64,000 nt of DNA from a virus. The DNA lies in IMG/VR virus record IMGVR_UViG_3300025120_000017, positions 96,001 through 160,000 of that record. One strand, written 5' to 3'. A model generated the notes under the pieces. It made no database searches. It was given only the letters and a program-made list of their open reading frames with translations, and had not been told where the DNA came from. This document shows positions 17,316 through 63,858 of the stretch, piece after piece (within the stretch, counting starts at the first letter, position 1; every line of letters begins with the position of its first letter). The position numbers were made by a program, and so were the translations under genes.

Positions 17316-18923
17316 TTAAGCAGTTTTAATTGCTGGAAACTTCTCTTGATATACTCCTGCTACGAACTTTGAAGCTGTTTCTGCTGTATCTATTGTATTA
17401 TTAGCTGTTTGTAAAGGAGTAACCGTTTTACCACCGCCACCTGATGCTGATCTATTTCTATAATATGACTTATCAGCAAAATCTACATCAGATCCATAAT
17501 ACCTATGACCACCATAATTAAACATTTTTTGTATTGCATATTTATCTCTTGGCATAGCATGTTTAAGCTTACATGATACAATTATTGCACTAGGAACATC
17601 ATCTATAGTAAAAGGACCTTCAAAACTAATTGAAGAATCTTCTAGAGCAAGGTTACCGATCATCATGGTTGGGTTAAAGGGATTACCTACTGTTAGATGC
17701 CACTCTCCTGTGCTTTGTGCAGTTAAAAGTGAATGTAAGCTATGCATTTCAGGTCTTCCTAATTTATCAAGGCCACCTCCTACTAATTTAGCCATTGAAT
17801 TACCTCCTAAAGTTTTTCCTAAGTTTCCCATGCTTTCCATAAATCCACCACTGAATGCATTTGTGAATGTACTCTTAAGATCTTTTGCAAATGATTTTAA
17901 AAAACCTACGGTATCCCCACTTCGTAATTTACTAAAATCTCCAATAGGAGTAGCAAATCCCCCACCTCCTGTAAATCTAACAGCTCCTCCCCAAAACGGC
18001 GCTTTACTAGAAGTCATGTTTAGTATGTTACCTAGAATATCTTGAAATGCTGCTCGTGTATTTATGCCATCATATGAACGAATCTTATACTTGAATTTAA
18101 CATCAAGGTTATGTTCAAATTTTAATCCACGTGATCTAGTATAAATAGAATCTATAACATCTATAGGACCCCATGTAAAATTATCTTGATGACTTGTATA
18201 TGGGTCAAAGTCTGTTGCTGCCTGTCCTTGAAGCTTTTCTTTAGCATATCTACCATCTGAATTGAATAATCCTGCTATGTTATTTAGTTTTTTGTTACCA
18301 AATGCAGTTTTTCCTCTTTCTATTGTTTGGATTTCAGATTTGAATTCTTTCCAGTTATATCCTACAGAAAAACTAAACATAGATTCCATTGTATTATCTT
18401 CACCATCAATATAACTAATTAGCCTACTTACATCTCTTGAAGGATTTTCTAATTGATTTTTTAAATTATCTCCACATGGGTTACTAAACCTACGAAGAGT
18501 TATCATATAATTATTAGGTATTTTACCATATTTAGCAGGAAAAAGAAAATCACCTTCTTTATATTGCATTGCATGATCTACAAAATTTTCTCCAAATTCT
18601 TTTACTATATTACTGCCTGTTGGGTTTTTTAAACCAGTAGCAACATTATTATTAAAGTAATCAGTTGGAGTTCCATAAAAATCAGAGTTTGCATTACCTT
18701 GATCATTAAATTTATTAAAGTGTATGACAGATAAGCTATGTAAAAGAGATTCTCTCCCTTTAATAGGAGGCATATTTTGATTTAGCTTTTCTCCTTTTTT
18801 ACCATATTTCTTTCCTTCAGGTATATCCTTTTCAGGAGAATCTCTCCATTTCTGTCTTATTAGAGATCCTGATCCACTTTTATTTAATTTATCTAGGCTT
18901 GAATATAATACTTTAGTACTCAT
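17316..18923 (-). CDS. Baseplate tail-tube cap-like protein (gp48-like)
   Basis: RSRGLKF..KFKY, WHLTVGNPFNP..GNLALED..DDVPSAIIVSCKL; first gene of the hub operon. Confidence 0.55.
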   Translation of the reverse strand: MSTKVLYSSLDKLNKSGSGSLIRQKWRDSPEKDIPEGKKYGKKGEKLNQNMPPIKGRESLLHSLSVIHFNKFNDQGNANSDFYGTPTDYFNNNVATGLKNPTGSNIVKEFGENFVDHAMQYKEGDFLFPAKYGKIPNNYMITLRRFSNPCGDNLKNQLENPSRDVSRLISYIDGEDNTMESMFSFSVGYNWKEFKSEIQTIERGKTAFGNKKLNNIAGLFNSDGRYAKEKLQGQAATDFDPYTSHQDNFTWGPIDVIDSIYTRSRGLKFEHNLDVKFKYKIRSYDGINTRAAFQDILGNILNMTSSKAPFWGGAVRFTGGGGFATPIGDFSKLRSGDTVGFLKSFAKDLKSTFTNAFSGGFMESMGNLGKTLGGNSMAKLVGGGLDKLGRPEMHSLHSLLTAQSTGEWHLTVGNPFNPTMMIGNLALEDSSISFEGPFTIDDVPSAIIVSCKLKHAMPRDKYAIQKMFNYGGHRYYGSDVDFADKSYYRNRSASGGGGKTVTPLQTANNTIDTAETASKFVAGVYQEKFPAIKTA

Positions 18924-18966
18924 AGAGAAAAGATGTATTTATATTATTTATTATACATCTTTCTCT
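18924..18966 (-). promoter_or_regulatory. Hairpin abutting the ATG with promoter-like TAATAAATA (18945-18953) in its loop
   Basis: Minus strand reads AGAGAAAGATGTAT-loop-ATACATCTTTTCTCT-ATG: 14 bp stem with one bulge. Confidence 0.75.
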
Positions 18967-27535: not shown

Positions 27536-30500
27536 TCATCCTCTAATTAATCTAATCCAAGTATTATCTGCAACTGCAGTAAACCAATAGTTTCCATTGT
27601 AATGTGATTGTCCTTGATAGGTTCCTGTTATTGTACTTCCTGTATAATTACCATTAACATCCCAATTAGATGTTGTTTCTAATAATGTTGCTACTGCTCC
27701 TGCTGATAGATAGGCTTCAATTATTGGAATTTCTGAAACTTGTCCAACTCCAGCACTAGTTTTACCTAACATACAGGGCTGAGTAACATCTTGCATTTTA
27801 TCGTAAGTAACTTTATCAGCTCCAATGGTAACCACTCCAGTATTACTTATTGTAGTGTCTCCACTCATTGCTACCGAAGTTGCAGCGTTTGAAGAGTTAC
27901 CTACAAATATTTGTCCATTATTTAAAGTTGGTGTTCCACCTCCACCAGCTTCAGATACACCATAACATTCCCATTTACTTGTGTCGGTGCTATATCTAAA
28001 TCTCGCAGCTACTACATCACCAACTATAGTTGTGTTTGGAAGGGTTATACCATTAATTCCAGTGTAAATAGCATTCCAAGTAATTGCTCTAGCAGTGCCA
28101 TCATCATCTAATCGAAACTCAAGTCTTTGTCCATTTCTAGGAGTTCCTGTTGGAGCATTTATACCTACTGCACCACCTAGTGCCTGATAATCAACAAAGT
28201 CTGTGAAGTCTCCATCCCAACTTGCCGATGTGCCTGTATTTTCAAAAGTCCTTACAATCTTAGTATAATCTCTAAGATTGTCCATTTCTACCTTTTTCTT
28301 ATTATTAGAATCAAATATATCCTCAATAAGCATTACTTCCCCGCCAACAAGAACTGTCTTCTGTGTGATAGGAGTAATTTCTGAAGCTTTATTGCTATGT
28401 ATTGCAGTATCAAATTCAGTATAAAAATTTAAGTACTTAATAGCACCTTGATTTGCATCATCTCTTATCATTACTTGTGCTGCTGTACTTCCGCTATATA
28501 AAGGAAGAGTTTGGGTAAGTGACCATGCTGGGGAATCTAATACTACACTAGATTCATTAATTGTAATGCTTGATGTATCACCGCCAGTGCCTCCATAATG
28601 TTCAAGTTTTATAGATGCATCTTGTAAACTAATTTTTCTATGAGATGCATCAGATATTTTAGTTTGTTTCCAAAACGCTGAACCTGTCCCAAAAATATTT
28701 GATTGGTCCCATTCTACAGTATGAAATTGGCTATTATTTTTAATATTACTTTTATATGCATCAAAATAGTAGTCTTGAGCATATAAGTTTCTTGTAGATG
28801 TTCCTTTATTTAATGCATATGGTACTGCAGTTGGTCCGTTTATCCAACCTGAAAATAATTTAGATCCACTTACAGTAATGCCTGGTGTTCCTGGGTTTGT
28901 TGCTCCTGGAGTACCACTATATATTTCTAAGTATACTGGCTTTCCTGTAGATGTAGCGCCTATCTGGTCAGTCTTTGCTCTTGCGCTTGAATCCGTTGCA
29001 CCTGAGTAACTATCATTAACAACACTTTGCCAATCTTGCACAGATCCTGAAGGGCCTGTTGGTCCTGGTACAGTGCTTTGTGCACCTGTATTACCTTGAA
29101 CTCCTTGAACTCCTTGAATTCCTTGAGATCCTTGTGGTCCTGTAACTCCTATTAGTCCTGTAGGACCAACTACCGTACTTGCGGCTCCTGTTGGGCCAGC
29201 AACACCTTGGGCTCCTGTTGGTCCTATTGGCCCTTGAGCTCCAGTAGTTCCTATTGTACCTACAGGTCCCTGTGGCCCAGTAGCTCCAATAGCTCCAGGC
29301 GTTCCGGCCGATCCTGTCGGTCCTTGTGCACCTGTTACCCCAGTTCCCAATACGCCAGTTGGCACAATCGTCCAATCAGAATTTGTACCTCCTAAAGAAG
29401 ATACATAAAAAGGTGTATCTAATGTTATATCCCCGCTTCCTGGACTATATCCAATAACTTTACAATCTGCAAATTGATTAGGAATGTTGTCATTTATAAT
29501 TCTAGCAAACTGACCTGGTGCAAATGCTTGACCTGATGGAAATGAAGTAATAGTAAGAGGGTTAATATCAATTAATCCAAATGATTGTGTACTTCTTATT
29601 ATTGCGCCTGCGCCTGTTAGCCCTTGTGCACCGTTAAGACCATTAAATCCAGTTACTCCTGTCGCTCCTTGACTTCCTTGGAGTCCTGAGATTCCTTGAG
29701 CTCCTGTAGGTCCAGCAGGACCTACAGGACCACCGCTTGGTCCTGTTGGGCCAATTGCAGTAGCACCTGTGGCACCTATTGGCCCAGTTACTCCTTGAGG
29801 CCCTGTTGGTCCTGGTAAACCAGTACCTGTAATTACCCAGCTATTTGATGGGTTGGTATCAGCACCTGGATTTATATAAAAAGGTGCATCAAATTGTAAT
29901 GCGCCAGTATTGTTATTAAATGAAGATACTCTACTTACTTGAAAATCACTAGGTGATAAAGTTTTTGAAATCTGTACATATGAGCCTACCACGAATGCAG
30001 TACCATATGAATTGGTTCCAATATTAGGTACTACATTAAGTTGAGATGTACTTCCGTTATTCAATGAAAATAGAGTTGCAGATGTTGCATATAATCCAGG
30101 GCCACTAGCACCAGCTGCACCTGTTACTCCTATTCCTGTAGGTCCTGCTGGTCCTGCTACTGTACTATTTGCACCTGTTGCTCCTGTTACTCCAGTACCT
30201 GTAGCTCCTATCGGTCCTGTAGGTCCTATTGGTCCTGGAACAGTAGATTGAGCTCCTTGAGTTCCTTGAATTCCTTGAATTCCTTGAGCTCCTGTAGGTC
30301 CTGCCACTGTACTATTTGCACCTGTTGGTCCTGTTACTCCAATTCCTGTTGCTCCAACAGGTCCAATATTACCTTGACTACCTGTAGCTCCAGTAGGTCC
30401 TGTAACACCAGGAACGCCACTACCACCTACGCCTATTTTTGTCCAATCTAATGGATCAAATGTTGCTTTCTGTGTATCGAATTTTGCTATGTAATTGTAG

Positions 30501-30649
30501 GGTCCTAGTCCATCATCATAAAGAACTACCATATCTTTTTTATATGGATAGTTAGCTGACCACTGTTCTTTATACCTAAAGTTATTATCTAACTCTGTAT
30601 GAGTTAGTGGCCTATTTTTGTTACCTCTATAATTAATTTTATCTGCCAT
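27536..30649 (-). CDS. Collagen-like tail fibre protein
   Basis: Several Gly-X-Y blocks (GPTGATG, GAQG); N-terminal RGNKNRPLTHTELDNNF motif; GQIFVGNSSN..MSGD fibre motif. Confidence 0.85.
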   Translation of the reverse strand: MADKINYRGNKNRPLTHTELDNNFRYKEQWSANYPYKKDMVVLYDDGLGPYNYIAKFDTQKATFDPLDWTKIGVGGSGVPGVTGPTGATGSQGNIGPVGATGIGVTGPTGANSTVAGPTGAQGIQGIQGTQGAQSTVPGPIGPTGPIGATGTGVTGATGANSTVAGPAGPTGIGVTGAAGASGPGLYATSATLFSLNNGSTSQLNVVPNIGTNSYGTAFVVGSYVQISKTLSPSDFQVSRVSSFNNNTGALQFDAPFYINPGADTNPSNSWVITGTGLPGPTGPQGVTGPIGATGATAIGPTGPSGGPVGPAGPTGAQGISGLQGSQGATGVTGFNGLNGAQGLTGAGAIIRSTQSFGLIDINPLTITSFPSGQAFAPGQFARIINDNIPNQFADCKVIGYSPGSGDITLDTPFYVSSLGGTNSDWTIVPTGVLGTGVTGAQGPTGSAGTPGAIGATGPQGPVGTIGTTGAQGPIGPTGAQGVAGPTGAASTVVGPTGLIGVTGPQGSQGIQGVQGVQGNTGAQSTVPGPTGPSGSVQDWQSVVNDSYSGATDSSARAKTDQIGATSTGKPVYLEIYSGTPGATNPGTPGITVSGSKLFSGWINGPTAVPYALNKGTSTRNLYAQDYYFDAYKSNIKNNSQFHTVEWDQSNIFGTGSAFWKQTKISDASHRKISLQDASIKLEHYGGTGGDTSSITINESSVVLDSPAWSLTQTLPLYSGSTAAQVMIRDDANQGAIKYLNFYTEFDTAIHSNKASEITPITQKTVLVGGEVMLIEDIFDSNNKKKVEMDNLRDYTKIVRTFENTGTSASWDGDFTDFVDYQALGGAVGINAPTGTPRNGQRLEFRLDDDGTARAITWNAIYTGINGITLPNTTIVGDVVAARFRYSTDTSKWECYGVSEAGGGGTPTLNNGQIFVGNSSNAATSVAMSGDTTISNTGVVTIGADKVTYDKMQDVTQPCMLGKTSAGVGQVSEIPIIEAYLSAGAVATLLETTSNWDVNGNYTGSTITGTYQGQSHYNGNYWFTAVADNTWIRLIRG

Positions 30650-30665
30650 TTAAGCAATTTTATTT

Positions 30666-31208
30666 TTATTCTAATCCGCTGTTATCAGTAGCAGGGTCAT
30701 TAGGATTATATCCTAATACTCCAACATATCCTGGGTCTACATAACATACATCAACAGATGCATCTTCTCTAGTTGTCTTAAGAAGAGTATTTTTATTAAA
30801 GTATGTAATTAAAGAATCTTTTAAATATGCAACACTTTTATTAGTGCCTGCAATTAATGAAGCATTCTTATAATTATTATATTCTGTATCTGTTTTTGAC
30901 TTTGGATTCCCATCTGCTATATTATAAAAACTTATATTACTTTTATACGAAACTGTGTTATTAATAAACCTAATGTTCTCTAAAAATATAAAATCACCTA
31001 CTATACAATATTTATTAGGCTTTGTATCGTTTATTAGGCTTGAATATCTAGCAAGAAAATCTGCTAAATCATTATAACTTATATAAGTTTTTTTACCAGA
31101 TAATTTAGAAATAATCTTAAATGATAAATCATAAGAAATAAACCCTTGAGTTTCTAAGTCTTTTAGAAATAGATATGTATATTCAAGAGTAGTAATATCA
31201 AGTTCCAA
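30666..31208 (-). CDS. Hypothetical protein, first gene of the fibre operon (TTG start)
   Basis: 180 aa; C-terminal YVDPGYV motif; preceded by late motif and hairpin. Confidence 0.65.
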   Translation of the reverse strand: MELDITTLEYTYLFLKDLETQGFISYDLSFKIISKLSGKKTYISYNDLADFLARYSSLINDTKPNKYCIVGDFIFLENIRFINNTVSYKSNISFYNIADGNPKSKTDTEYNNYKNASLIAGTNKSVAYLKDSLITYFNKNTLLKTTREDASVDVCYVDPGYVGVLGYNPNDPATDNSGLE

Positions 31209-31255
31209 CAGTACATATATTATTTTTATTATTTAATAGAGTACTATTGGAACTT
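31200..31255 (-). promoter_or_regulatory. 15-bp hairpin covering the TTG start, with TATTAAATA (31230-31238) in the loop
   Basis: AAGTTCCAATAGTAC pairs with GTACTGTTGGAACTT (one U-G pair). Confidence 0.8.
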
Positions 31256-31266
31256 ATAATCAAAAA

Positions 31267-32511
31267 TTAGAATAATGATTTTGTTTTTATAATGTTTAGC
31301 TTCTGTTCTGTTGATTTGTTAGAAACTATTTCTATATTCTTAGAGAGTGCTTTAAATAGGCTTGATGCATATTGACCGTTAAAATATACATCATCAAGAT
31401 ACTTCTTATATAAATGAACTCTAAGCTGTTTGTATTTTTCTGGATTTTGCTCCAATGCTTTTATTTTAGTGTGTAGCTCTTTAGAGTTTTTAACTCTTAA
31501 AAAGTCATGTAAATCTAGGTTATTCTGTGTATCATAAGTTTCATGAACAAACGGTATCATACCATGATAAACAACTTCTCTAAATTTTGTAGTTACTGGA
31601 CCTTTTGTGTTTCCTACAACAAGAGTATACTTAAATTTTTGAGCCAATGGATCTAATTCATGAAATTTAACCACTCCTTTGATTTGAGAATGTGCATTAA
31701 GAACTTCTTCTTTCCAATTTCCATAAATATGAGCTTCTTGATTAACATCATAATCTAATACATATTCTTGTAAGATTTTTAATCTATCTTGAGATGATGC
31801 ATTCCCTTGATTAAGAATTAGCCCTATCTTTATTGGTTTTTCAATGGATAACCATGAATCAAGATCTAGTTTATTCTTATCATATAATATTGTAGCATCT
31901 AATTTAGAGTAAATTTCTTTAACTTTATCAACCTTTTTAGTATTATCACCTTTTGCAATTATACTCTTTATTTCATGCTCTTGTTCCCAAACACTGATGC
32001 ATCTTCTAGGTGGATTAATTAAATCAACTGATGCATATGGAAAGTAGTTTTTATCTACACATAGCATATCAAAAGTTATCTTACTTTCATTAAGATAAGA
32101 AAACATTGGACCTACATAATTCTTTAACATATCAAGAGGTGTACCCATTTTATTAGAATCACTCTCAAGAGGCGTATGATTAGGAATATTTGTTCTTCCT
32201 ACAGGACCTGTGTATATTAATCCATAATCTATTGTAATATTCATTCTTTTAAAGAACTCATATGGAAATCTCCACATATCACAATGATAGTCTTCAGTGT
32301 TATAGAATTGCCAAATATCAATTAAATTATCTGCTATATTTAACTTTTTTCTTGTTAAGTCATTTTTACCTATACAATAAAAAGTAATATTTGGATTAGC
32401 TTTAATTATTGGGTAATATATGTTATATGCATCACAATCACCACCTTTTCCATTCCATGATTTAGTATCAAATGATAAAGATTTACCTATTTTACCTATT
32501 ACTACGTTCAT
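31267..32511 (-). CDS. GT-B glycosyltransferase, T4 DNA beta-glucosyltransferase-like
   Basis: C-terminal VTTKFREVVYHGMIPFVHETYDTQ..FLRVKNSKELHTKIKALE resembles the T4 BGT C-terminal domain (by-eye comparison). Confidence 0.65.
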   Translation of the reverse strand: MNVVIGKIGKSLSFDTKSWNGKGGDCDAYNIYYPIIKANPNITFYCIGKNDLTRKKLNIADNLIDIWQFYNTEDYHCDMWRFPYEFFKRMNITIDYGLIYTGPVGRTNIPNHTPLESDSNKMGTPLDMLKNYVGPMFSYLNESKITFDMLCVDKNYFPYASVDLINPPRRCISVWEQEHEIKSIIAKGDNTKKVDKVKEIYSKLDATILYDKNKLDLDSWLSIEKPIKIGLILNQGNASSQDRLKILQEYVLDYDVNQEAHIYGNWKEEVLNAHSQIKGVVKFHELDPLAQKFKYTLVVGNTKGPVTTKFREVVYHGMIPFVHETYDTQNNLDLHDFLRVKNSKELHTKIKALEQNPEKYKQLRVHLYKKYLDDVYFNGQYASSLFKALSKNIEIVSNKSTEQKLNIIKTKSLF

Positions 32512-32512
32512 T

Positions 32513-33793
32513 CTAAAATAACTTTTTGCTTTTTATAGCAGGTTCAACATCGCCTAAAACAATTTTTTGAGCACAATTATCTTGCATTAAATATCGGGTA
32601 TTACTTAATGGTAATTCACCGTTTAAAAATTTAACAACCTCATGAGTCCAATCAGCTGCAGTATTTACTGGGACATTTTGAGTAATTGCATGAATTTCAG
32701 ATTTACCTTTAATTTCAAAATCATGAGGAAATCCCATTAAGTGTAGCATTTCTCTAACATTTAGATACCTATTTTCATTTGGATTAATAAAACTTGCTAC
32801 AGATTTTGAAATTAACGCATTCATACAATCTCCATTAAACTGTGGAGATTCATCCCAATATCCACCTGCTTGTCTAACTTTTACTTTATCCCAAATTCTA
32901 TCAATCTTTGCTTTGATTCTACGTTTTCTATCTTTTTCATCTAATGTATCATATCCTTTCTTTGAAAACCATTGACAGAATTCATCATATAATTCTTCTT
33001 CTAATATAGTTTCAACAGTAGAGAATTTTTTACCACCAGTTTTCTTTAAGAAGTCTGTATAGCTTAACCCACTCCTTTCAATAAGAAACTCAAATGTAGG
33101 AAATGCATCAGTTGGTGATAACTCGTTTGAATATAAATCTCTAAGAGATGCAGTATCAGGAATATCATTTAAGTATTCTATTAAGGATTTTCTTTCTCTA
33201 TCATAATAACCTAATATTGGAGATGCATCAGATTTCCAGAAAAAATAAAAACTTCTTGTTCTATTTTGTGGTATTCCATGTAACTTTGTACTTGTTTTAA
33301 TAACACTATAACTATAATTATGCTTTTCAGCAATAAGTCTTAGTCTTTCACGAACACCTGCACCTAGTTTTGTAAAAAACCCTGGAGCATTTTCTCCAAA
33401 CATTACTTTAGGTTTTACTGTACCTAAAACAAACTCAGTACTTTTATACATCCATTCGTTTTGAGCAGCATCTGATCCTCTACTACTTGCACTTTTGCCA
33501 TTTGATGCATTAAGCATTGATAAACCTGCACATGGACAAGTACTACTTACAATATCAACATCAGTAAGTCTTTCCCCATTATTTGCATCTATTAATTCAT
33601 TAGTTTCTGCATCGATAGTAATATATGGAATATCAAGTCCTTTATTTTCATAATGTCTTAATAATAAACCATCATTAAAACCAAATGCAGGATAAGATAA
33701 GATATATTCAGGAGGAGTTCCTAATTCTTTCTCAACTCCTATAGGTAATCCTCCTATAAGTGGAATAATTGCAGCATGCTTGTATTTTTTCAT
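32513..33793 (-). CDS. C5 DNA cytosine methyltransferase-like protein (atypical motif I)
   Basis: Catalytic PC (TCPCAGLS), ENA (ENV-like), PQNRTR, RYLNVREMLHLMGFP and QNVPV; motif I reads IPLIGG. Confidence 0.85.
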   Translation of the reverse strand: MKKYKHAAIIPLIGGLPIGVEKELGTPPEYILSYPAFGFNDGLLLRHYENKGLDIPYITIDAETNELIDANNGERLTDVDIVSSTCPCAGLSMLNASNGKSASSRGSDAAQNEWMYKSTEFVLGTVKPKVMFGENAPGFFTKLGAGVRERLRLIAEKHNYSYSVIKTSTKLHGIPQNRTRSFYFFWKSDASPILGYYDRERKSLIEYLNDIPDTASLRDLYSNELSPTDAFPTFEFLIERSGLSYTDFLKKTGGKKFSTVETILEEELYDEFCQWFSKKGYDTLDEKDRKRRIKAKIDRIWDKVKVRQAGGYWDESPQFNGDCMNALISKSVASFINPNENRYLNVREMLHLMGFPHDFEIKGKSEIHAITQNVPVNTAADWTHEVVKFLNGELPLSNTRYLMQDNCAQKIVLGDVEPAIKSKKLF

Positions 33794-35145
33794 AACTTTA
33801 ATTTTTTCAGAATGTATTTTTTAATGCTATCTTTATTGTTTAAATCATTAAATCCCATGTATTGTTTTATTTCATCAATAATTTCTTGAGCTTCTTCAGG
33901 ATTTTGATTAAAATATTTTATCTTTTGATTAATTTCACTAGAATTTTTTACTCTTAAAATATCATTAAATTTAGATGGCAACTGTTTATTTAACGGGTCA
34001 TAATCGTGAGCAACAAGAGGTAAATTATTTAGAGATACTGCCTGTGCAATTCTTCTATGATAACTATTATTAATTATAGGAGATGGAACAAAAGAATACT
34101 TATGTCTAATAAATTGTTTTGTACATTCATCATATGTTACTTCAATTCCTTTATGAAACTTGTTGTTTAATATATGTTCATAAGTACTTGGTGCTTTTAG
34201 TTCATTACCTTTAATCTTTTTATAATATAAAGAATGTGGCCCATCAGCTATATTCATAATATAGTCTTCATACATTTTTATCCTAGATTCGTTTCTTTCA
34301 CTTGATACGGTGCCACAAAAAAGTAAATCCATTTTCTTATCCTTAAATTTTAATAGTGGATTATTAAATAAGCCTGTGCTTAAATGGCTTTGTGTAACAT
34401 ACCCATGTTTAATAACATCAACTTTAAAATCTTCAGTAATTGGATAATACATATCATCAGCTGCAAATGTATAAAGGTTTTCTCTGTATAGTTTACTATA
34501 CCTAGGATCAGGTGAAAATATATGCACAGATTTACCTAACCTATTAAGAATATACATTGTACATCTATATAAATTCATAGATAGTCCAATATATCCACCT
34601 AAATTAAAACCAGGCTCGTGACTATTCCATAACTCTAAGAAATCTTTTGCGCCTCTGGCATTTCTTTTAATTCTAACACCTCCTTTAAATTGTTCAATTC
34701 CTTTTACATTATTATATGCAACATAAGATTGTGCAAATGTAAATGTTGACCTACAACTAAAATCAACTACTAATGTAATGTTAAGAGGGTTAATAACGTT
34801 TTCTATAATATTGAAAATGCTTTCACGATGTTCAGCGAATTCTTCTTTAAGAATTAAACTATCACCTTCAAGCTTAATTAAGATAATTCCATTTCCATGA
34901 TTTTTTAATTTATCACTATTGTATGTAGTGATAGATCCTGTTATAAAGATAATATTATAATCATCTTTTATAAAAGGTAAAATACAATCAGTAAAGTCTT
35001 CATGATGCTCAGATTCTAAATCTAATTGTTGATATACTTTACTATATCCTAAAGGAAATAATAGAGTTTTCTTACTATTAAGAGAGTTAAGTTCTTTATA
35101 TTCAACAATTAATCTGTCTAATGGGTTTTTAATTATCGTTTTCAT
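33790..35145 (-). CDS. Second BGT-like GT-B glycosyltransferase
   Basis: DLLFCGT..RNESR, RRIAQAVSLNNLPLVAHDYDP..LRVKNSSEINQKIK; C-terminal domain similar to 31267..32511. Confidence 0.55.
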   Translation of the reverse strand: MKTIIKNPLDRLIVEYKELNSLNSKKTLLFPLGYSKVYQQLDLESEHHEDFTDCILPFIKDDYNIIFITGSITTYNSDKLKNHGNGIILIKLEGDSLILKEEFAEHRESIFNIIENVINPLNITLVVDFSCRSTFTFAQSYVAYNNVKGIEQFKGGVRIKRNARGAKDFLELWNSHEPGFNLGGYIGLSMNLYRCTMYILNRLGKSVHIFSPDPRYSKLYRENLYTFAADDMYYPITEDFKVDVIKHGYVTQSHLSTGLFNNPLLKFKDKKMDLLFCGTVSSERNESRIKMYEDYIMNIADGPHSLYYKKIKGNELKAPSTYEHILNNKFHKGIEVTYDECTKQFIRHKYSFVPSPIINNSYHRRIAQAVSLNNLPLVAHDYDPLNKQLPSKFNDILRVKNSSEINQKIKYFNQNPEEAQEIIDEIKQYMGFNDLNNKDSIKKYILKKLKL

Positions 35146-35638
35146 TAATGTATCCTACATTCAGGTTTTTGTTATTTTCTTCTAATTGACATCGCTTTCT
35201 TAAATCAGATGAACTGTATGGATGTCTTCTAGTATTGTATTTTATTTCAATTTCATTGATATACTTACCTGTGAAATCTTTATCTCTATATTCTTCTCCA
35301 ACTAATCTGATTTTAGGTAATAGAGTAAGTAATGCATTTTCTAAATCTTTCTCTGAATCAAGCGGAATTACCTCATCTATATATTCTACTGAGTTTAATT
35401 GTCCCCACCTTTCAAATAAGCTCTGTACTGGTTTATTCTTTGTTTCTGGTCTATCAATCGTTGCATCATTAATTAAACCAACAACAAGATAGTCTCCAAG
35501 AGACCTTGCTTTATAATAAAGATCAATATGTCCTATATGGTTTAATTCACCGCAAGTGCTAGTAAAAATAATATCAAGTTCATTAACATTCTTTCCTAGC
35601 TCTTTAGCACGCTTTTGTAATAATTTAAAGTTTAGCAT
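35129..35638 (-). CDS. Cytidylyltransferase-family nucleotidyltransferase (TagD / HldE-II-like)
   Basis: HIGH motif, GDYLVVGL, KPVQSLFER, YIDEVIP, YSSSDLR. Confidence 0.9.
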   Translation of the reverse strand: MLNFKLLQKRAKELGKNVNELDIIFTSTCGELNHIGHIDLYYKARSLGDYLVVGLINDATIDRPETKNKPVQSLFERWGQLNSVEYIDEVIPLDSEKDLENALLTLLPKIRLVGEEYRDKDFTGKYINEIEIKYNTRRHPYSSSDLRKRCQLEENNKNLNVGYINENDN

Positions 35639-36713
35639 TAATAAGATCTTTAGTTATATTTAAGTATTTTTTAAAATTAGGATCATTTGTATGATATTTT
35701 AAGATTCTAACCCATTGAGTTGTTTCAAGAATTTTTAGTACTTTATTCAATAGAGATTTATCAAGATCATCGGTATATCGCTTCATTACATACCTACAGT
35801 ATGATTGTAATCCGCTATTATTATGTTTTCTTCCACTATGTGATAGTTTCGCAATATCAAGATATACTGATGAATACAGGTCTTTTATATAGATAGGATC
35901 AATTAAAACAAGACCTTTAGTTTTATTAAAGATCATATTTTCTATTGAGAAATCACCATGCATAAAAGATTTGTGCATATTCATAAAAGGAGTAATTCTA
36001 TGCATATTTTCTAATAATAACATTCTTTCATCATTTAATAAATGCCCAGACTCAACATTGATCTTTAGATGTGAATCTATTCTATCTATATATGTAATAA
36101 AATCAGATCCTAGTGATGGAGTTGATGCAATACAGTTTAGTTCATTGCCTATTGCATGGAAATTAAGAATATCATCATGTTTAATGTATTCCATTCTTAA
36201 GGTATTTCCTACAAGACTTTTAATTTCCGGAATACTTAATCCTGCTGACTCTGCTTTAATGTACCATTTACTAGCTTCTCTGCTATCTGTATGTGTTTTG
36301 TAAATTTCATTGCCATGTTTTTCAACTATTGCACCACTCTTACCTCTTTTAATAGGAGTTATATCAATGTTTAAAAACTCTTCAGGAAGAATTCCTTTAT
36401 CATCAATGTAATATGCAGCAAGTGGCTTATTGAAACTTAACTCATTATAAATAAGACCATGAAAGTTTAAGAATTGTTCTATGTTCTTTCTATATTTTTT
36501 ATCAGCTTCTTTTCGACTATCGCATGAAATAGACCCTCTTGCTGTTAAAACAAGAATATACCAACCATTCTTTTGTAATTCATTCAGTCTTTTAATAAGT
36601 TCTTTATTAACATCAGCGCTTTCCCAGTTTCGGGTTTTAGTAAAGCTAAGAGTATCATCAAAATCAACACATATGATTTTACTCATGTCTTGTGGTCTTT
36701 CTTTATAAAACAT
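35625..36713 (-). CDS. HAD phosphatase fused to an APH/choline-kinase-like phosphotransferase
   Basis: N-terminal CVDFDDTL..LTAR..KP..YIDDK (HAD); C-terminal HGDFSIENMIF..LIDP..DIAKL (kinase). Confidence 0.85.
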   Translation of the reverse strand: MFYKERPQDMSKIICVDFDDTLSFTKTRNWESADVNKELIKRLNELQKNGWYILVLTARGSISCDSRKEADKKYRKNIEQFLNFHGLIYNELSFNKPLAAYYIDDKGILPEEFLNIDITPIKRGKSGAIVEKHGNEIYKTHTDSREASKWYIKAESAGLSIPEIKSLVGNTLRMEYIKHDDILNFHAIGNELNCIASTPSLGSDFITYIDRIDSHLKINVESGHLLNDERMLLLENMHRITPFMNMHKSFMHGDFSIENMIFNKTKGLVLIDPIYIKDLYSSVYLDIAKLSHSGRKHNNSGLQSYCRYVMKRYTDDLDKSLLNKVLKILETTQWVRILKYHTNDPNFKKYLNITKDLINAKL

Positions 36714-37242
36714 TATAAGAATTCATTAAGTTAAGAATGTGTATTTGTTTTAAGATTGATGCAATTCTTTTTGCCATATGATTTTTAGATATAGCAATAC
36801 GTTCTTCGGTCATTTCAAGACCTAAATATATTTTATAAATATCATCACCTTTTAAATTAAGCTGGGTTAAGCTATTTATAATATCTACATCAAAAGAGTT
36901 TTCATACTTAATACTTCCTGTTGTTTCTATATATGCTTTATTAAACTCTTCAATAGTAAAAGATGCATATCCATTATCTTCTAAGATTGCATTAATTTCA
37001 GAAATCCTATAAGCAATTGCATCTAATAAATTGTCTTCTTTATGGTTATATTTTTGCCTACTTAGTTTTAATCCATATAAATATCTAAAGCTATTTAATT
37101 GAGATTCTTTATCGCATTCAATATTTAAGAATTCTGAAATATTAGTAGCTGCTTTCATTCCTTCTATCATAGGACCATATTGCCTAGTTTTCTCTTCAGA
37201 TCTAGAATTAATGATCTGATTTGCTTTTTCTACTAATGACAT
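36703..37242 (-). CDS. DUF6378-like helical protein (possible nucleotide-processing enzyme)
   Basis: ANQIINSRSEEKTRQYGP..LKLSR..HKEDNLLDAIAY. Confidence 0.6.
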   Translation of the reverse strand: MSLVEKANQIINSRSEEKTRQYGPMIEGMKAATNISEFLNIECDKESQLNSFRYLYGLKLSRQKYNHKEDNLLDAIAYRISEINAILEDNGYASFTIEEFNKAYIETTGSIKYENSFDVDIINSLTQLNLKGDDIYKIYLGLEMTEERIAISKNHMAKRIASILKQIHILNLMNSYNVL

Positions 37243-37269
37243 ATTTTTTATTATTAAATATGATGTATG

Positions 37270-37533
37270 TTAATATTGTTTAATTAATGCGATTAAAAAT
37301 CCAGATTTTCTAATTAACCTATGATAATTTTCTTTAAATACAAAGCATTTAATTCCTATTGATAATTTTTTAGGAAGCTCATTATCATATTGAAATAGCC
37401 ATTTGCCAAAAGGAAAGAAAAAAATTTCACGATGTTCATTATCTCTATGCCATTGATAGAGCATTTCATCTTTTTTGTAGAATATTCTAATTACATATCC
37501 ACATATGTTTAGTTGCTTAAATGGATTTACCAC
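37270..37533 (-). CDS. Small cupin-like protein
   Basis: WHRDNEHRE..WLFQYDNELP..YHRLI (HxD..H pattern). Confidence 0.55.
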   Translation of the reverse strand: MVNPFKQLNICGYVIRIFYKKDEMLYQWHRDNEHREIFFFPFGKWLFQYDNELPKKLSIGIKCFVFKENYHRLIRKSGFLIALIKQY

Positions 37534-38036
37534 GGATAGTCACTTTTTAGTCCAAGATGCTTTGCAAATAAATGAATATTACAACTCCAAAAGCCTGCTT
37601 TATTAACATCTGTTTTACTATCACATCTATGCCTTGCTTGAAAACTATCAGCAGCCTTTTTATCATGATTTTTTATTGATAGATTAGGATCACCAAATCT
37701 TATTATATTTGCTATAGGTAATCCACTATCTTTATCTTTTTTACCGCTATCTAAATAAACTCTAAGTTTTTTAGTTTCAGTTTTAGCATAATCAGGTAAA
37801 TGTAACTTAATCTTCTTTCCTTTATAAATACCAGGCTCTCCAGTTTTTAAAGATGCGATTGCTTTATCTCTACCTTCAAGAAGCAGTTTACCATTATTGT
37901 AAAGTTCTCTAACTTCAATAATTAGATCACAAAACTTTTCAGACCCGTACATAAATACGCATTCAGAAATTCCAATACCATTATTCAAATGATATTCTAG
38001 TTCTTGTGACATTTTAAATGATGATAGCGGTTTCAT
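37527..38036 (-). CDS. Conserved phage protein (RFGDP..SFQARHRC..FWSC domain), possibly head cargo
   Basis: Domain recurrent in T4-like phages; late-type motif 20 nt upstream; N-terminus MKPLSSF loosely resembles the capsid-targeting signal. Confidence 0.65.
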   Translation of the reverse strand: MKPLSSFKMSQELEYHLNNGIGISECVFMYGSEKFCDLIIEVRELYNNGKLLLEGRDKAIASLKTGEPGIYKGKKIKLHLPDYAKTETKKLRVYLDSGKKDKDSGLPIANIIRFGDPNLSIKNHDKKAADSFQARHRCDSKTDVNKAGFWSCNIHLFAKHLGLKSDYPW

Positions 38037-38071
38037 ATAATGTAAATTCTTTATATTATTTATTCCATTAT
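38037..38071 (-). promoter_or_regulatory. GAATAAATA motif (38057-38065) in an AT-rich hairpin abutting the ATG
   Basis: ATAATG-GAAT pairs with ATTT-A-CATTAT directly before the ATG at 38036. Confidence 0.45.
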
Positions 38072-38266
38072 TTGCATAAAGAAATCTTCAAGATCTTGAA
38101 TAGTGCTATTATTTTCTATAAGTGATGCTTCCCCATTAACAGATTCATACCAAATTATTTCATCAGGTATTTTAATATCTGCAAATTTTGAAAATTGTCT
38201 TATGTATGTAGACTCTTTATGTTGTATTGTGTATATTGCATTATATTGGGCTGTTATGATTTTCAT
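38060..38266 (-). CDS. Hypothetical protein
   Basis: 68-aa ORF coupled by an ATGA overlap. Confidence 0.6.
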   Translation of the reverse strand: MKIITAQYNAIYTIQHKESTYIRQFSKFADIKIPDEIIWYESVNGEASLIENNSTIQDLEDFFMQIME

Positions 38267-60706: not shown

Positions 60707-62423
60707 GATAGCTTAGCGGATAGCAATCATCAATAATGTATCCTTTACTATCTTCTCTGAATATTAATTTATTAAATGATGTTGGTTGATTTTCAACTGT
60801 CATCACGTCTTTTAAAAATCTTATACTTGCAATTTCATCGTTACTTGCATATAAGCCTACATCCCATTTAGGTCCAAATGCTGTAGGCTTAATAGTTGAT
60901 TCATATACTATAGACATTTTTGTGGTTTTATTTACAAGATCTTGTCTTTTCCAAATTCTTAAAGTAAGTTCATCATATGTTACATTATTACCTATATATA
61001 TGCCATACCATTCATTATTAGGTAAGTTAAATGACCATGTGTTACTGCCAATCTCTAATCCTGTAAATGCTGTTTCTGTTCCTATTACATTAACAAGAGT
61101 TTGGCCACCAAATAACTTAACAGTAGCAGAAGGTTGATATAATGTCCCAGTAACTCTAGGTTTCATATAATACCAAAACATTAAACAAAAATTACTGCTA
61201 GTATCTATAGAATTTTGATAAGTTATTAAAGGATCACTTACAGTAGATGCAGTTGCACCTGCCATGCCTGTTGCTCCTATTCCACTACTTTCATTAACAC
61301 CTTTACTCAGTGATGATTTAGGAAATGATAAATCATATTGAAATTTACTAAATACTGTATAATAATTATTTAGGTTTCTTTCTATAACACCTACTTTTTC
61401 CCAATCTGTGTTAATAGTTTCCCTGCAATTATCACTATCACCAATTCTTCTAACCGTGTATTGTTGTGGCTTAACTATATCTATTTCTTCAGCTGCTTTA
61501 ATTGTATCAAATCCAACATCTTCAAAGTTTAATGTAAGATCATCAATTGCTTTTTGTGTATCACTATCTTTTACTATGCTATCAGACTCAGTCCATTTTA
61601 TTAAGCTTGCTTTCCACCACTGTACTTGTCTCATAAATCCTTTGTGAGATTGTACTGAATTTAATCTATACATTCTACGCTCTAATGGAAAATACAGAAA
61701 ATCTTTTTCAGCAGGCTGTTCACCTGCTCCAAATGATGCCCAAAAACTTTCCTTATGTATTTGGATTTCTAACTCATCCGCAAAGTCTACATCAAACTCG
61801 GTAAATTGAAATTCACCAGACCCGAAATCATTATCAGGCACAATTACTTTAATTTTTTTACAGTCTCTAACTTTTAATAGTGACCATTCTTTAAAAATAA
61901 CATCTCGACTTTCTTCTATTTCATCAGCTTTAAAATATAATACAGGCCATCCCATATTATTAAACACTGAGCATGTTAAATTTTCAAACCAAGGTAATCC
62001 ACTTAATGCTGTGCTATATAGTGCAGATGTATTACAATTAGCAAGAAATGAATTATCTCCACTATTTGTTCCACATGCAGTTATAGTACAAGCGCATGAT
62101 CCATTTTCACCTAATTTACCTCCTTCCCATTCAATTTTTAAAGAAGTTACGGTTATATCAACATCAGATTTAACCCTAAATCCAAGCCAAGTAAATTCAT
62201 TAGTAAATGCAGGAGAGTTAGGTGCAGGCCATGATTTCCATTCTGTCCATGTATCACCATCTTTACTAAACCTATATTCAGTGGTTAAAGTAGATGATGT
62301 AGGAGTAACAGCAAATCCTATATTAAAAAGCGATGTTAAATTTTGAATTGCTTCGGTTAGTTCAATAACAAGCCATTCATTAGCTTTAATCGCTTTGCTT
62401 ATATCAATTATATATGAATTCAT
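60684..62423 (-). CDS. Neck / head-closure protein (T4 gp14-like core) with N- and C-terminal extensions
   Basis: DVIFKE, LEIQIHKESF, PAEKDFLYFP..RMYRLNSV; LamG-like C-terminus (FCLMFW, NEWYGIYI). Confidence 0.7.
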   Translation of the reverse strand: MNSYIIDISKAIKANEWLVIELTEAIQNLTSLFNIGFAVTPTSSTLTTEYRFSKDGDTWTEWKSWPAPNSPAFTNEFTWLGFRVKSDVDITVTSLKIEWEGGKLGENGSCACTITACGTNSGDNSFLANCNTSALYSTALSGLPWFENLTCSVFNNMGWPVLYFKADEIEESRDVIFKEWSLLKVRDCKKIKVIVPDNDFGSGEFQFTEFDVDFADELEIQIHKESFWASFGAGEQPAEKDFLYFPLERRMYRLNSVQSHKGFMRQVQWWKASLIKWTESDSIVKDSDTQKAIDDLTLNFEDVGFDTIKAAEEIDIVKPQQYTVRRIGDSDNCRETINTDWEKVGVIERNLNNYYTVFSKFQYDLSFPKSSLSKGVNESSGIGATGMAGATASTVSDPLITYQNSIDTSSNFCLMFWYYMKPRVTGTLYQPSATVKLFGGQTLVNVIGTETAFTGLEIGSNTWSFNLPNNEWYGIYIGNNVTYDELTLRIWKRQDLVNKTTKMSIVYESTIKPTAFGPKWDVGLYASNDEIASIRFLKDVMTVENQPTSFNKLIFREDSKGYIIDDCYPLSYLGYLSNK

Positions 62424-62426
62424 TTA

Positions 62427-62459
62427 AGGGCTATTCTTTTATTATTTAATAAGTGCCCT
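62427..62459 (-). promoter_or_regulatory. TATTAAATA (62443-62451) enclosed by an AGGGC/GCCCT stem ending 3 nt before the ATG
   Basis: Motif 19 nt upstream of the ATG at 62423. Confidence 0.6.
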
Positions 62460-62469
62460 AGAAAAAGGA

Positions 62470-63012
62470 TTATATTTTTTTTGCTCTATTAAGTTTATTC
62501 TTCTCAATAAATTGTTTAGCAATATCAGGCTCAGTATGTGGAATTTTTAAAAATTCCTTGTGTGAAGTAAATAGGCTATACATATAACATTCTTCATTGG
62601 ATATTACATGATGATTAACATCTTTAGGTATTATATAAATATCTCCTTTATTTAAGGTAACTTTTGATATTCTATCATATGCTTGACCTTCAAGAATCTT
62701 AATTACTTCCCATTCTTTTGAATGTACGTGTGGTGCAATATATGAATTTTTTGAATAATATGTTAACACAGATCGGTATTCATCAGATAAATGTAATCCC
62801 ATAGTAGATACGCCTCTTGATACATTTAACGGCAAATCTGTCCATCTATTTTTTACTATATTAAAATCTAATGAAGTTACGTCTTGAAAATTTGCATTAA
62901 TATTTTGAATTGCATTTTCTATCCTAAGACATGATGCAACTGCCTCTGCATATGTAGCATTACATTGCTTTCCTGTTAAAATATTCCAAATGTTTTTTGC
63001 AAATATTCCCAT
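62470..63012 (-). CDS. Cupin-domain protein
   Basis: PHVHSKEWEVIKILEG..LNKGDIYIIPKDVNH. Confidence 0.85.
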   Translation of the reverse strand: MGIFAKNIWNILTGKQCNATYAEAVASCLRIENAIQNINANFQDVTSLDFNIVKNRWTDLPLNVSRGVSTMGLHLSDEYRSVLTYYSKNSYIAPHVHSKEWEVIKILEGQAYDRISKVTLNKGDIYIIPKDVNHHVISNEECYMYSLFTSHKEFLKIPHTEPDIAKQFIEKNKLNRAKKI

Positions 63013-63314: not shown

Positions 63315-63503
63315 TCATGAAAATATCTCTATTAAACAAAGTGCACCCATGATTGATATAAATGCGCCTATCCCATTAGCAATAAATGTAGCCATAGGAG
63401 AATCATCTGCATCTTCTTGGTATCTTGATACGTTATAACCTAAGTATATACATATTATAAAAAAAATAAATTTAAAAGCATTGAAAATAATTAAACTAGT
63501 CAT
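63315..63503 (-). CDS. Small two-TM protein
   Basis: 62 aa, two hydrophobic segments, ATGA overlap. Confidence 0.55.
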   Translation of the reverse strand: MTSLIIFNAFKFIFFIICIYLGYNVSRYQEDADDSPMATFIANGIGAFISIMGALCLIEIFS

Positions 63504-63790
63504 ATTAATTCTTTTTTAAGGTTTCTGAAGCTTTTTAATAACCAAATCCTAAAGCCTTGACTAAAAATAGGTTCATATATTTGAAGTGCATCATAAAAAT
63601 CTACGCTTTGCTTATCAAATATTTCAATTAATTCATGGTGAGGTAAGCCTTTACTATTTTCTATAAGTTCTTTAGTTTTAATTACATATAGACATATCTT
63701 CATTATAAATGCGCTTGATACTACCTCAGTTTCTTCTAATAAATTTAATACTTTATCAAAAGATGTCCCTGTTTTATGCTTAAACTCCAT
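63500..63790 (-). CDS. Hypothetical protein
   Basis: 96-aa ORF. Confidence 0.6.
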   Translation of the reverse strand: MEFKHKTGTSFDKVLNLLEETEVVSSAFIMKICLYVIKTKELIENSKGLPHHELIEIFDKQSVDFYDALQIYEPIFSQGFRIWLLKSFRNLKKELI

Positions 63791-63806
63791 ATATTATTTA
63801 TTACAC

Positions 63807-63840
63807 TGAAAACTCTGCCTATTTTTAGACAGAGTTTTCA
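63807..63840 (-). terminator. Stem-loop (possible terminator or processing site)
   Basis: tgaaaactctg/cagagttttca 11-bp stem, extendable with a G-U pair on the minus strand; no U-tract. Confidence 0.55.
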
Positions 63841-63858
63841 ATATAATAAATATTTTAA

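What the first reader, a model, noticed from the sequence alone, without database searches (positions are those of the whole stretch)
31200..31255. Late promoter inside a hairpin that hides the start codon (fibre operon gate)
Seen: the minus strand reads AAGTTCCAATAGTAC-tcTATTAAATAataaaaataatatat-GTACTG[TTG]GAACTT, a 15-bp stem with one U-G pair. The 3' arm contains the TTG start and the loop contains the late motif. It sits at the junction between the DNA-modification operon and the fibre operon, with no U-tract. Known: T4 genes e, soc, 49 and I-TevI are silenced on early read-through RNA by such hairpins and released when a late promoter starts the transcript inside them. Inference: the same timing switch operates here.
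Basis: partly seen in the sequence, partly recalled or inferred. Interest (0 to 1): 0.72.

Follow-up and report, generated by a model that had tools for sequence, protein, structure and literature searches.

The report
Late promoter inside start-codon hairpin
An uncultured marine T4-like phage hides the start codon of a small gene ahead of its tail-fibre gene in a strong RNA hairpin whose loop carries the gene's own late promoter, so probably only late-started RNA is translated; phage T4 is already known to do this, so it is a good new example, not a new mechanism.

Summary
On the minus strand, arms 31255-31241 and 31214-31200 form a 15-bp stem with one G-U pair (RNAfold -21.7 kcal/mol, z -6.2). 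TATTAAATA lies in the 26-nt loop, the TTG start is in the 3' arm, and no U-tract follows.

The motif behaves as a late promoter: [AT]TAAATA lies 14-24 nt before 32 gene starts (2.3 expected), including tail sheath. The sugar-modification operon upstream has a different, replication-gene-type promoter and no terminator before the hairpin.

Opening the start region costs about 19 kcal/mol on read-through RNA. It costs 2-6 on RNA started at the loop promoter. T4 genes e and 49 give the same figures in the same pipeline.

Homologues of the 180-aa gene keep the motif and a GTG start. Five lineages have a canonical terminator just upstream and no significant hairpin. A sixth (L005) has no GC-rich terminator and an unrelated start-hiding hairpin.

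Best reading (about 0.55): a T4-type translational timing switch, and a new member of a known kind. It gates only the 180-aa gene directly, not demonstrably the whole fibre operon. Transcript ends were not measured.

This scan has noted the same device in other phage genomes.

The parts
31241..31255 (-). 5' arm of the hairpin (AAGTTCCAATAGTAC), wholly intergenic, 11 nt after the TAA stop of the upstream gene
31215..31240 (-). 26-nt A/U-rich loop
31230..31238 (-). Late-promoter-type motif TATTAAATA (core TAAATA as in T4 TATAAATA), 21 nt before the TTG start. It fits the genome consensus tTAtTAAATAtaAAAa.
   Evidence: conserved before every homologue
31222..31226 (-). Predicted late transcription start (about 6 nt after the motif, by T4 spacing). 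It lies in the loop, downstream of the 5' arm. Inferred, not measured.
   Evidence: inference from T4 late-promoter geometry; folds are insensitive to the exact position
31200..31214 (-). 3' arm (GTACTGTTGGAACTT), covering -6 to +9 of the translation start
31206..31208 (-). TTG start codon of the 180-aa ORF. It aligns with the GTG start of all homologues; in L002 a stop codon sits directly before the GTG.
30666..31208 (-). 180-aa ORF of unknown function. Wherever the downstream DNA was read (window, L002-L005) it lies directly before a large ORF of at least 455 aa; in the window this is the collagen-like fibre gene.
   Evidence: AF2 model pLDDT 77 without a clear fold match
27536..30649 (-). 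1037-aa collagen-repeat tail-fibre gene. It has no promoter motif of its own, and its ATG is 16 nt after the ORF180 stop.
31267..32511 (-). Last gene of the DNA sugar-modification operon (414 aa). It scores only weakly as glycosyltransferase-like, below Pfam's cut-off. It is absent at this place in relative L002, where the C5-methylase-like gene is followed by a terminator.
37254..37281 (-). AAACA-N17-ATTTAA promoter-like site, 11 nt before the first gene of the modification operon (36703-37242). The same class precedes replication and nucleotide-metabolism genes.

Best explanation
This is a translational timing switch of the T4 type. RNA started at the replication-class promoter ahead of the DNA-modification operon (about 37281-37254) meets no terminator and runs across the intergenic gap. 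On that RNA the 15-16 bp hairpin forms and buries the TTG start and its flanks (-6 to +9). This phage uses almost no Shine-Dalgarno sequences, and the start codon is weak, so initiation should depend on an open, A/U-rich start region and the 180-aa ORF stays silent. Late in infection the phage's gp55-type sigma reads TATTAAATA in the loop. The transcript then starts near 31224, lacks the 5' arm, cannot form the hairpin, and is translated. Shown: the hairpin, the motif's genome-wide placement, the start codon by homology, and the folding contrast. Inferred: read-through, the start-site position, the timing of the two promoter classes, and any effect on the fibre gene.
For: Hairpin: -21.7 kcal/mol, z -6.2.
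Folding contrast: P(unpaired) of the start codon is 0.001 on read-through RNA and 0.35-0.49 on late RNA. The opening cost of -12..+15 is 18-19 against 2-6 kcal/mol.
Positive controls, same script: T4 e gives 15.5 against 1.6-4.3, and T4 49 gives 19.0 against 5.8. One of T4 e's late promoters also sits in the loop.
Late motif: [AT]TAAATA lies 14-24 nt before starts 32 times against 2.3 expected, with 4 in the antisense control. It precedes tail sheath and a helicase.
Upstream promoter class: AAACA-N16-18-ATT[AT]AA occurs 28 times against 8.9 expected. It precedes a gp41-like helicase, gp44, a thymidylate-synthase-family gene, a dNTP pyrophosphatase-like gene and the head of the modification operon.
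No terminator: there is no intergenic terminator between that promoter and the hairpin.
Uniqueness: of 36 stable intergenic structures in the genome, this is the only one with a same-strand start codon in its stem. Most of the rest are short-loop stems followed by U-tracts.
No SD-like motif before any of 31 late genes.
Relatives: L005 has an unrelated hairpin (-17.1 kcal/mol, z -4.3) whose 5' arm holds the late motif and whose 3' arm holds the GTG start; opening costs 17.3 against 5.3. Relatives with a strong terminator have no such hairpin.
Second case in this window: a promoter-in-loop hairpin at 18924-18966 (z -3.4).
Against: There are no transcript or translation data.
The hairpin is a singleton. 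No relative with the same stem could be fetched, so covariation cannot be assessed.
Most relatives insulate this gene with a terminator, so the hairpin is not an ancestral, conserved feature.
The near-perfect arms could be a recent inverted duplication that selection has not yet tested.
The fibre gene downstream is not itself hidden, which weakens the adaptive rationale unless it is translationally coupled.
The gp55 homologue is detected only weakly: PHROG late-sigma families at E about 1e-4, and two short collinear motifs against T4 gp55.
Confidence: 0.55

Rival explanations
1. The hairpin acts on the upstream operon's RNA. It would be a non-canonical terminator or pause site, a 3'-end stabiliser, or an RNase III-type processing site closing the modification operon. 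Its overlap with the next gene's start would then be secondary.
For: It stands exactly where five related lineages have an intrinsic terminator. With its 4-bp outer extension the helix is about 20 bp long, a length RNase III can use (my own knowledge).
Against: It has a 26-nt loop, an A/U-rich stem and no U-tract. Most of this genome's other stable intergenic hairpins have 4-9 nt loops, GC-rich stems and U-tracts. This does not explain why the 3' arm is made of the start codon and first two codons.
Confidence: 0.15
2. It is a neutral by-product. A recent local inverted duplication or template switch, made when the extra 414-aa gene replaced the terminator, left a chance inverted repeat with no selected function.
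For: Inverted repeats of 13-16 bp arise in Markov shuffles of this genome. The arms are nearly perfect, which suggests youth. The stem is unique to this genome. The junction was rearranged compared with L002-L004.
Against: My rough estimate is about 1e-3 for a chance repeat to bracket one of about 32 promoter-start pairs with the start inside the arm. The single mismatch keeps pairing (U-G) on the sense RNA but not on the antisense RNA (-21.7 against -18.0). A non-homologous hairpin does the same at the orthologous gene in L005. Even a neutral stem of this strength would still block initiation on long RNA.
Confidence: 0.2
3. It is a DNA-level element. The inverted repeat would bind a dimeric regulator or extrude as a cruciform to control the late promoter, or it would mark a recombination or homing site.
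For: In T4, I-TevI binds an operator overlapping its own late promoter (PMC2988022). The promoter lies exactly between the arms.
Against: The arm centres are 41 bp apart, far for an operator. The arm sequence recurs nowhere else in the genome, and IMG/VR matches were chance single arms without the partner. No endonuclease or regulator gene is adjacent.
Confidence: 0.07

Closest known systems
Phage T4 genes e, soc, 49 and the intron endonucleases I-TevI/II/III (also segB, and Aeh1 mobE): a start-region hairpin with an internal late promoter
   Same: A stable helix hides the start region on transcripts from upstream early/middle promoters. A TAAATA-core late promoter lies within the structure, so late RNA lacks the 5' strand. 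The computed opening-energy contrast is the same size as for T4 e and 49. T4 e also has one late promoter in the loop. Literature: PMC3014915, PMC2988022.
   Different: There is no Shine-Dalgarno sequence to hide; the stem covers the start codon itself, a weak TTG. The motif is ATTAAATA rather than TATAAATA. The stem is longer (15-16 bp) and the loop larger (26 nt). The gated gene is a small partner of a tail-fibre gene, not a lysozyme, capsid decoration protein or nuclease. The phage is a distant, uncultured marine relative. Nothing here has been measured.
Terminator followed by late promoter, the arrangement before the same gene in relatives L001-L004, L145 and L147
   Same: Same gene boundary, same ATTAAATA motif, same 16-21 nt spacing to a non-ATG start. 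Both would keep upstream transcription from expressing the gene early.
   Different: Those relatives stop the RNA with a GC-rich short-loop stem plus U-tract. Here the RNA would continue and only translation of the first gene is blocked.
PeSLs (promoter-early stem-loops) of RB49/phi1-type phages (Arbiol et al. 2010, PMC2839356, abstract read)
   Same: A promoter joined to a stem-loop at a gene boundary in a T4-type phage, at a place where gene content differs between relatives.
   Different: PeSLs are repeated cassettes with strong sigma70-like early promoters and stem-loops that terminate transcription. This hairpin is unique in its genome, carries a late-type motif and lacks terminator features.

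Membership tests
T4-type late-promoter / start-region hairpin switch | A stable RNA helix sequesters the ribosome site and/or start codon on long transcripts | tested here: met
   -21.7 kcal/mol, z -6.2. P(unpaired) of the start codon is 0.001. Opening cost is 18-19 kcal/mol.
T4-type late-promoter / start-region hairpin switch | A late promoter lies within the structure, so the late transcript lacks the 5' strand | tested here: met
   TATTAAATA sits in the loop. The motif class is enriched 14-fold at 14-24 nt before starts. The start-site position itself is inferred from T4 spacing, not mapped.
T4-type late-promoter / start-region hairpin switch | Late-initiated RNA has an open start region | tested here: met
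   Opening cost is 2-6 kcal/mol for predicted starts 31222-31226. T4 e and 49 controls behave alike.
T4-type late-promoter / start-region hairpin switch | Early or middle transcripts read through from upstream | tested here: inconclusive
   A replication-class promoter heads the upstream operon, and no intergenic terminator follows it. There are no RNA data.
T4-type late-promoter / start-region hairpin switch | The phage encodes a gp55-type late sigma factor | tested here: inconclusive
   L126:1785-2690(-) matches PHROG late-sigma families at E about 1e-4 and shares two collinear motifs with T4 gp55. phmmer and the genome search with T4 gp55 found nothing. gp44, gp46 and gp47 homologues are clear.
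T4-type late-promoter / start-region hairpin switch | Translation is repressed on long RNA and relieved on late RNA, shown by experiment | not testable with these tools
   Needs toeprinting, reporters or ribosome profiling.
Intrinsic (Rho-independent) terminator | GC-rich stem, short loop, U-tract directly after the stem | tested here: not met
   The loop is 26 nt, the stem has 6 G-C pairs of 15, and the tail GAUAUUAC has no U-tract. The terminator scan did not call it. Most of the genome's other stable intergenic hairpins have these features.
PeSL regulatory cassette | A repeated cassette with a sigma70-like early promoter and a terminating stem-loop | tested here: not met
   The arm sequence is unique in the genome at up to 3 mismatches. 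The motif is of the late type. PeSL definition taken from PMC2839356.

The most novel reading that the evidence does not exclude
In these Shine-Dalgarno-poor marine T4-like phages, start-codon hairpins built around the late promoter may be an interchangeable alternative to intrinsic terminators for insulating late genes. They would arise repeatedly and independently at the same gene boundary whenever a terminator is lost: this window and L005 have them, while five terminator-bearing lineages do not. They might form by inverted duplication of the gene's first codons.
Probability: 0.25. Interest if true: 0.5.

Novelty: new member of a known kind. Interest (0 to 1): 0.35.

Why it matters
It extends a classic T4 control device to a very distant, uncultured marine relative that initiates translation without Shine-Dalgarno sequences, and to a tail-fibre-associated gene. 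If the reading holds, the logic (hide the start on read-through RNA, start the productive RNA inside the hairpin) is older or more easily re-invented than the few T4 cases suggest. The relatives add a natural comparison: the same gene boundary is insulated either by a terminator or by a start-hiding hairpin. Practically, it helps to annotate late promoters, non-ATG starts and transcription units in metagenomic phage genomes.

Tried and rejected
1. Hairpin as a repeat or mobile element: the arm is unique in the genome. The 119+ IMG/VR matches to the 15-mer were single arms without the partner, which is about the chance expectation.
2. Known RNA family: no Rfam match at E <= 1.
3. Intrinsic terminator: its defining features are not met.
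4. Relatives for covariation:
   - Single-protein and alignment scans of IMG/VR and of GTDB genomes found no close relative of the 180-aa ORF.
   - The one metagenome scan gave five loci, and scans with L003 and L005 proteins gave three new loci and none.
5. A genome-wide trend of start-hiding hairpins at late promoters: only a weak excess. 5 of 31 late starts fall below the 5th percentile of other genes. The candidate at 62405-62480 is not significant (z -0.3).
6. The moderate hairpin in L001/L002 is not better than shuffles.
7. Function of the 180-aa ORF:
   - No Pfam or PHROG family.
   - Foldseek on PDB gave nothing.
   - The best VIA-align match was the Aha1 N-domain at Z 6.5, within the noise range.
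   - ESM Atlas hits were below 0.9.
8. Raw hairpin rarity: by energy alone the stem is not the strongest local structure in the genome, because GC-rich collagen-repeat coding regions fold more stably.

Full report
OBSERVATION.
- 5' arm AAGTTCCAATAGTAC at 31255-31241.
- A 26-nt loop at 31240-31215, with TATTAAATA at 31238-31230.
- 3' arm GTACTGTTGGAACTT at 31214-31200, with TTG at 31208-31206.

The repeat finder reports the same arms: 15 nt, 93% complementary, 26 nt apart. The one mismatch is a U-G pair on the sense RNA. RNAfold adds a 16th pair and a short outer helix, giving -21.7 kcal/mol, z -6.19, with 0 of 200 shuffles as stable. The whole structure lies in the 58-nt gap between the TAA of gene 31267-32511 and the TTG of ORF 30666-31208. 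No U-tract follows the stem.

CONTEXT. The window is part of a 171,834-bp, 29.8% GC virus record. The record has clear homologues of T4 gp44, gp46 and gp47.

Upstream on the same strand lie, in order:
- a phosphoheptose-isomerase-like gene and a cytidylyltransferase-like gene;
- a 451-aa gene scoring weakly as glycosyltransferase-like;
- a C5-methylase-like gene;
- the 414-aa gene, also weakly glycosyltransferase-like.

Both glycosyltransferase matches are below Pfam's cut-off. Downstream lie the 180-aa ORF, a 1037-aa collagen-repeat tail-fibre gene and a DUF285 protein.

TWO PROMOTER-LIKE CLASSES.
- Late class. [AT]TAAATA lies 14-24 nt before 32 gene starts, against 2.3 expected from its genome-wide rate (P about 2e-25). 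The antisense control gives 4. The extended consensus is tTAtTAAATAtaAAAa. It precedes a tail-sheath gene (PHROG E 1e-128) and a helicase. Its core equals that of the T4 late promoter TATAAATA.
- Replication class. AAACA-N16-18-ATT[AT]AA occurs 28 times against 8.9 +/- 3.2 expected, and half the sites lie 9-24 nt before a start. It precedes a DnaB/gp41-like helicase, gp44, a thymidylate-synthase-family gene, a dNTP pyrophosphatase-like gene and a repair exonuclease. It also precedes gene 36703-37242, the head of the modification operon, at 37281-37254.

Between that site and the hairpin there is no intergenic terminator. A gp55-like gene is detected only weakly.

THE START CODON. Nine homologues (58-77% identical, 177-180 aa) all begin at the same residue, M/V-E-L-D. 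In all loci whose DNA I could read, the start is GTG preceded by ATTAAATA at 16-19 nt. In L002 a stop codon lies directly before the GTG. The TTG is thus the true start. In the window its 21-nt distance from the motif fits the genome's spacing.

FOLDING CONTRAST.
- On RNA that enters from the upstream gene, the start codon is unpaired with probability 0.001. Opening -12..+15 costs 18-19 kcal/mol.
- On RNA started at 31222-31226 (about 6 nt after the motif, as in T4), the probability is 0.35-0.49 when the RNA is folded to 31140. The cost is 2-6 kcal/mol, depending on how much coding sequence is included.
- The same script on T4 gives 15.5 against 1.6-4.3 for gene e and 19.0 against 5.8 for gene 49. 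One of the two late promoters of e lies in the hairpin loop, as here.
- SD-like motifs are absent before all 31 late-class genes and rare elsewhere (11 of 177). Initiation should therefore depend on an open start region.

CHANCE.
- A 15-bp inverted repeat with one mismatch is not remarkable somewhere in this A/T-rich genome. Markov shuffles reach 13-16 bp.
- By raw energy, GC-rich collagen-repeat coding regions fold more stably.
- What stands out is the position. Of 36 intergenic structures at -15 kcal/mol or below, this is the only one with a same-strand start codon inside its stem. Most of the others are short-loop, GC-rich stems with U-tracts.
- Pairing of the pre-start-site segment with the start region (-21.8) exceeds every other gene in the genome (next best -12.8) and all 2000 shuffles.
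- I estimate roughly 1e-3 for a chance repeat to bracket one of the promoter-start pairs in this way. This is an estimate, not a simulation.

RELATIVES.
- Five lineages have a GC-rich, short-loop stem with a U-tract, then ATTAAATA, then GTG: L001/L002, L003=L144, L004/L146, L145 and L147. None has a significant start-hiding hairpin.
- L005 (37% identical protein) lacks a GC-rich terminator. It has an unrelated hairpin at 764-811 (-17.1 kcal/mol, z -4.3). Its 5' arm contains the late motif and its 3' arm contains the GTG and the next codons. Opening costs 17.3 on long RNA and 5.3 on late RNA.
- So the need to insulate this gene from upstream transcription looks conserved, while the means differs. 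With so few and partly related lineages this is suggestive only.
- In L002 the methylase-like gene (50% identical to 32513-33793) is followed directly by the terminator. Here an extra 414-aa gene intervenes and the terminator is gone.
- In L003, L004 and L005 the whole modification cluster is absent at this place.

WHAT IS GATED. Only the 180-aa ORF is hidden. The fibre gene has no motif of its own and starts 16 nt after the ORF180 stop. The A-rich spacer is 16-17 nt in every relative read. Coupling is possible but untested, so 'fibre operon gate' overstates the evidence. The ORF's function is unknown:
- no Pfam or PHROG family;
- an AF2 model with pLDDT 77;
- no Foldseek match;
- best VIA-align Z 6.5 to the Aha1 N-domain, within noise.

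RIVALS. A non-canonical terminator, stabiliser or processing site fits the position but not the anatomy. A young, neutral inverted duplication is not excluded, because no relative with the same stem could be read. A DNA-level operator or cruciform is unlikely but untested. The hairpin is not a repeat family, not an Rfam family and not a PeSL.

COMPARISON AND NOVELTY. The device is the one reviewed for T4 e, soc, 49, I-TevI/II/III, segB and Aeh1 mobE (PMC3014915, PMC2988022). This case differs in several ways: it hides a weak TTG without any Shine-Dalgarno sequence, the stem is longer, the gated gene is different, and the phage is only distantly related. It is a new member of a known kind. Notes from this scan report similar promoter-in-hairpin arrangements in other phage genomes, and one more in this window at 18924-18966. 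I confirmed the latter as a significant hairpin (z -3.4), and relative L136 keeps a 7-bp promoter-in-loop stem of different sequence.

There are no expression data.

Noticed in passing
window 37254-37281 (-) and 13 other sites genome-wide: AAACA-N16-18-ATT[AT]AA occurs 28 times against about 9 expected. It sits 9-24 nt before replication and nucleotide-metabolism genes and before the head of the DNA-modification operon. It is a second, non-late promoter class.
   Followed up: partly
window 18924-18966 (-): A second promoter-in-loop hairpin: a 14-bp stem whose 3' arm ends at the ATG of gene 17316-18923, with AATAAATA/TATAAATA in the loop (-15.3 kcal/mol, z -3.4). Relative L136 keeps a 7-bp stem of different sequence (GACCTAA/TTAGGTC) around the same motif. 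L135 is unclear.
   Followed up: partly
window 63794-63852: A 27-bp near-perfect hairpin with a 4-nt loop (-33.7 kcal/mol on the minus strand). It is the strongest intergenic structure in the genome and ends just before the gene at 63500-63790.
   Followed up: no
whole genome: Shine-Dalgarno-like motifs are nearly absent: 0 of 31 late-class genes and 11 of 177 others. This points to a host with SD-independent initiation.
   Followed up: partly
window 30650-30665 and L002-L005: The spacer between the 180-aa ORF's stop and the fibre gene's ATG is A-rich and 16-17 nt long in every relative, which would fit a stop-restart coupling.
   Followed up: no
L126:1785-2690 (-) = genome 43784-44689: A candidate gp55-like late sigma, about 90 residues longer than T4 gp55. 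It shares only the N-terminal NYVNN..LL motif and the NP..Y.T..C.N motif with T4 gp55. It lies next to gp4-like and gp2-like genes.
   Followed up: partly
window 31267-38036 compared with L003/L004: In L003, L004 and L005 the 180-aa ORF follows a 67-69-aa gene directly. If that gene matches the window's 68-aa gene at 38060-38266 (similarity is only weak, E 0.016), about 6.8 kb holding the modification operon and two small genes is an insertion relative to them.
   Followed up: partly
genome 74135-74191 (window -21865 to -21809): An intergenic hairpin with a 13-15 bp GC-containing stem and a large A/T-rich loop (-25.4 kcal/mol). Its function is unknown.
   Followed up: no
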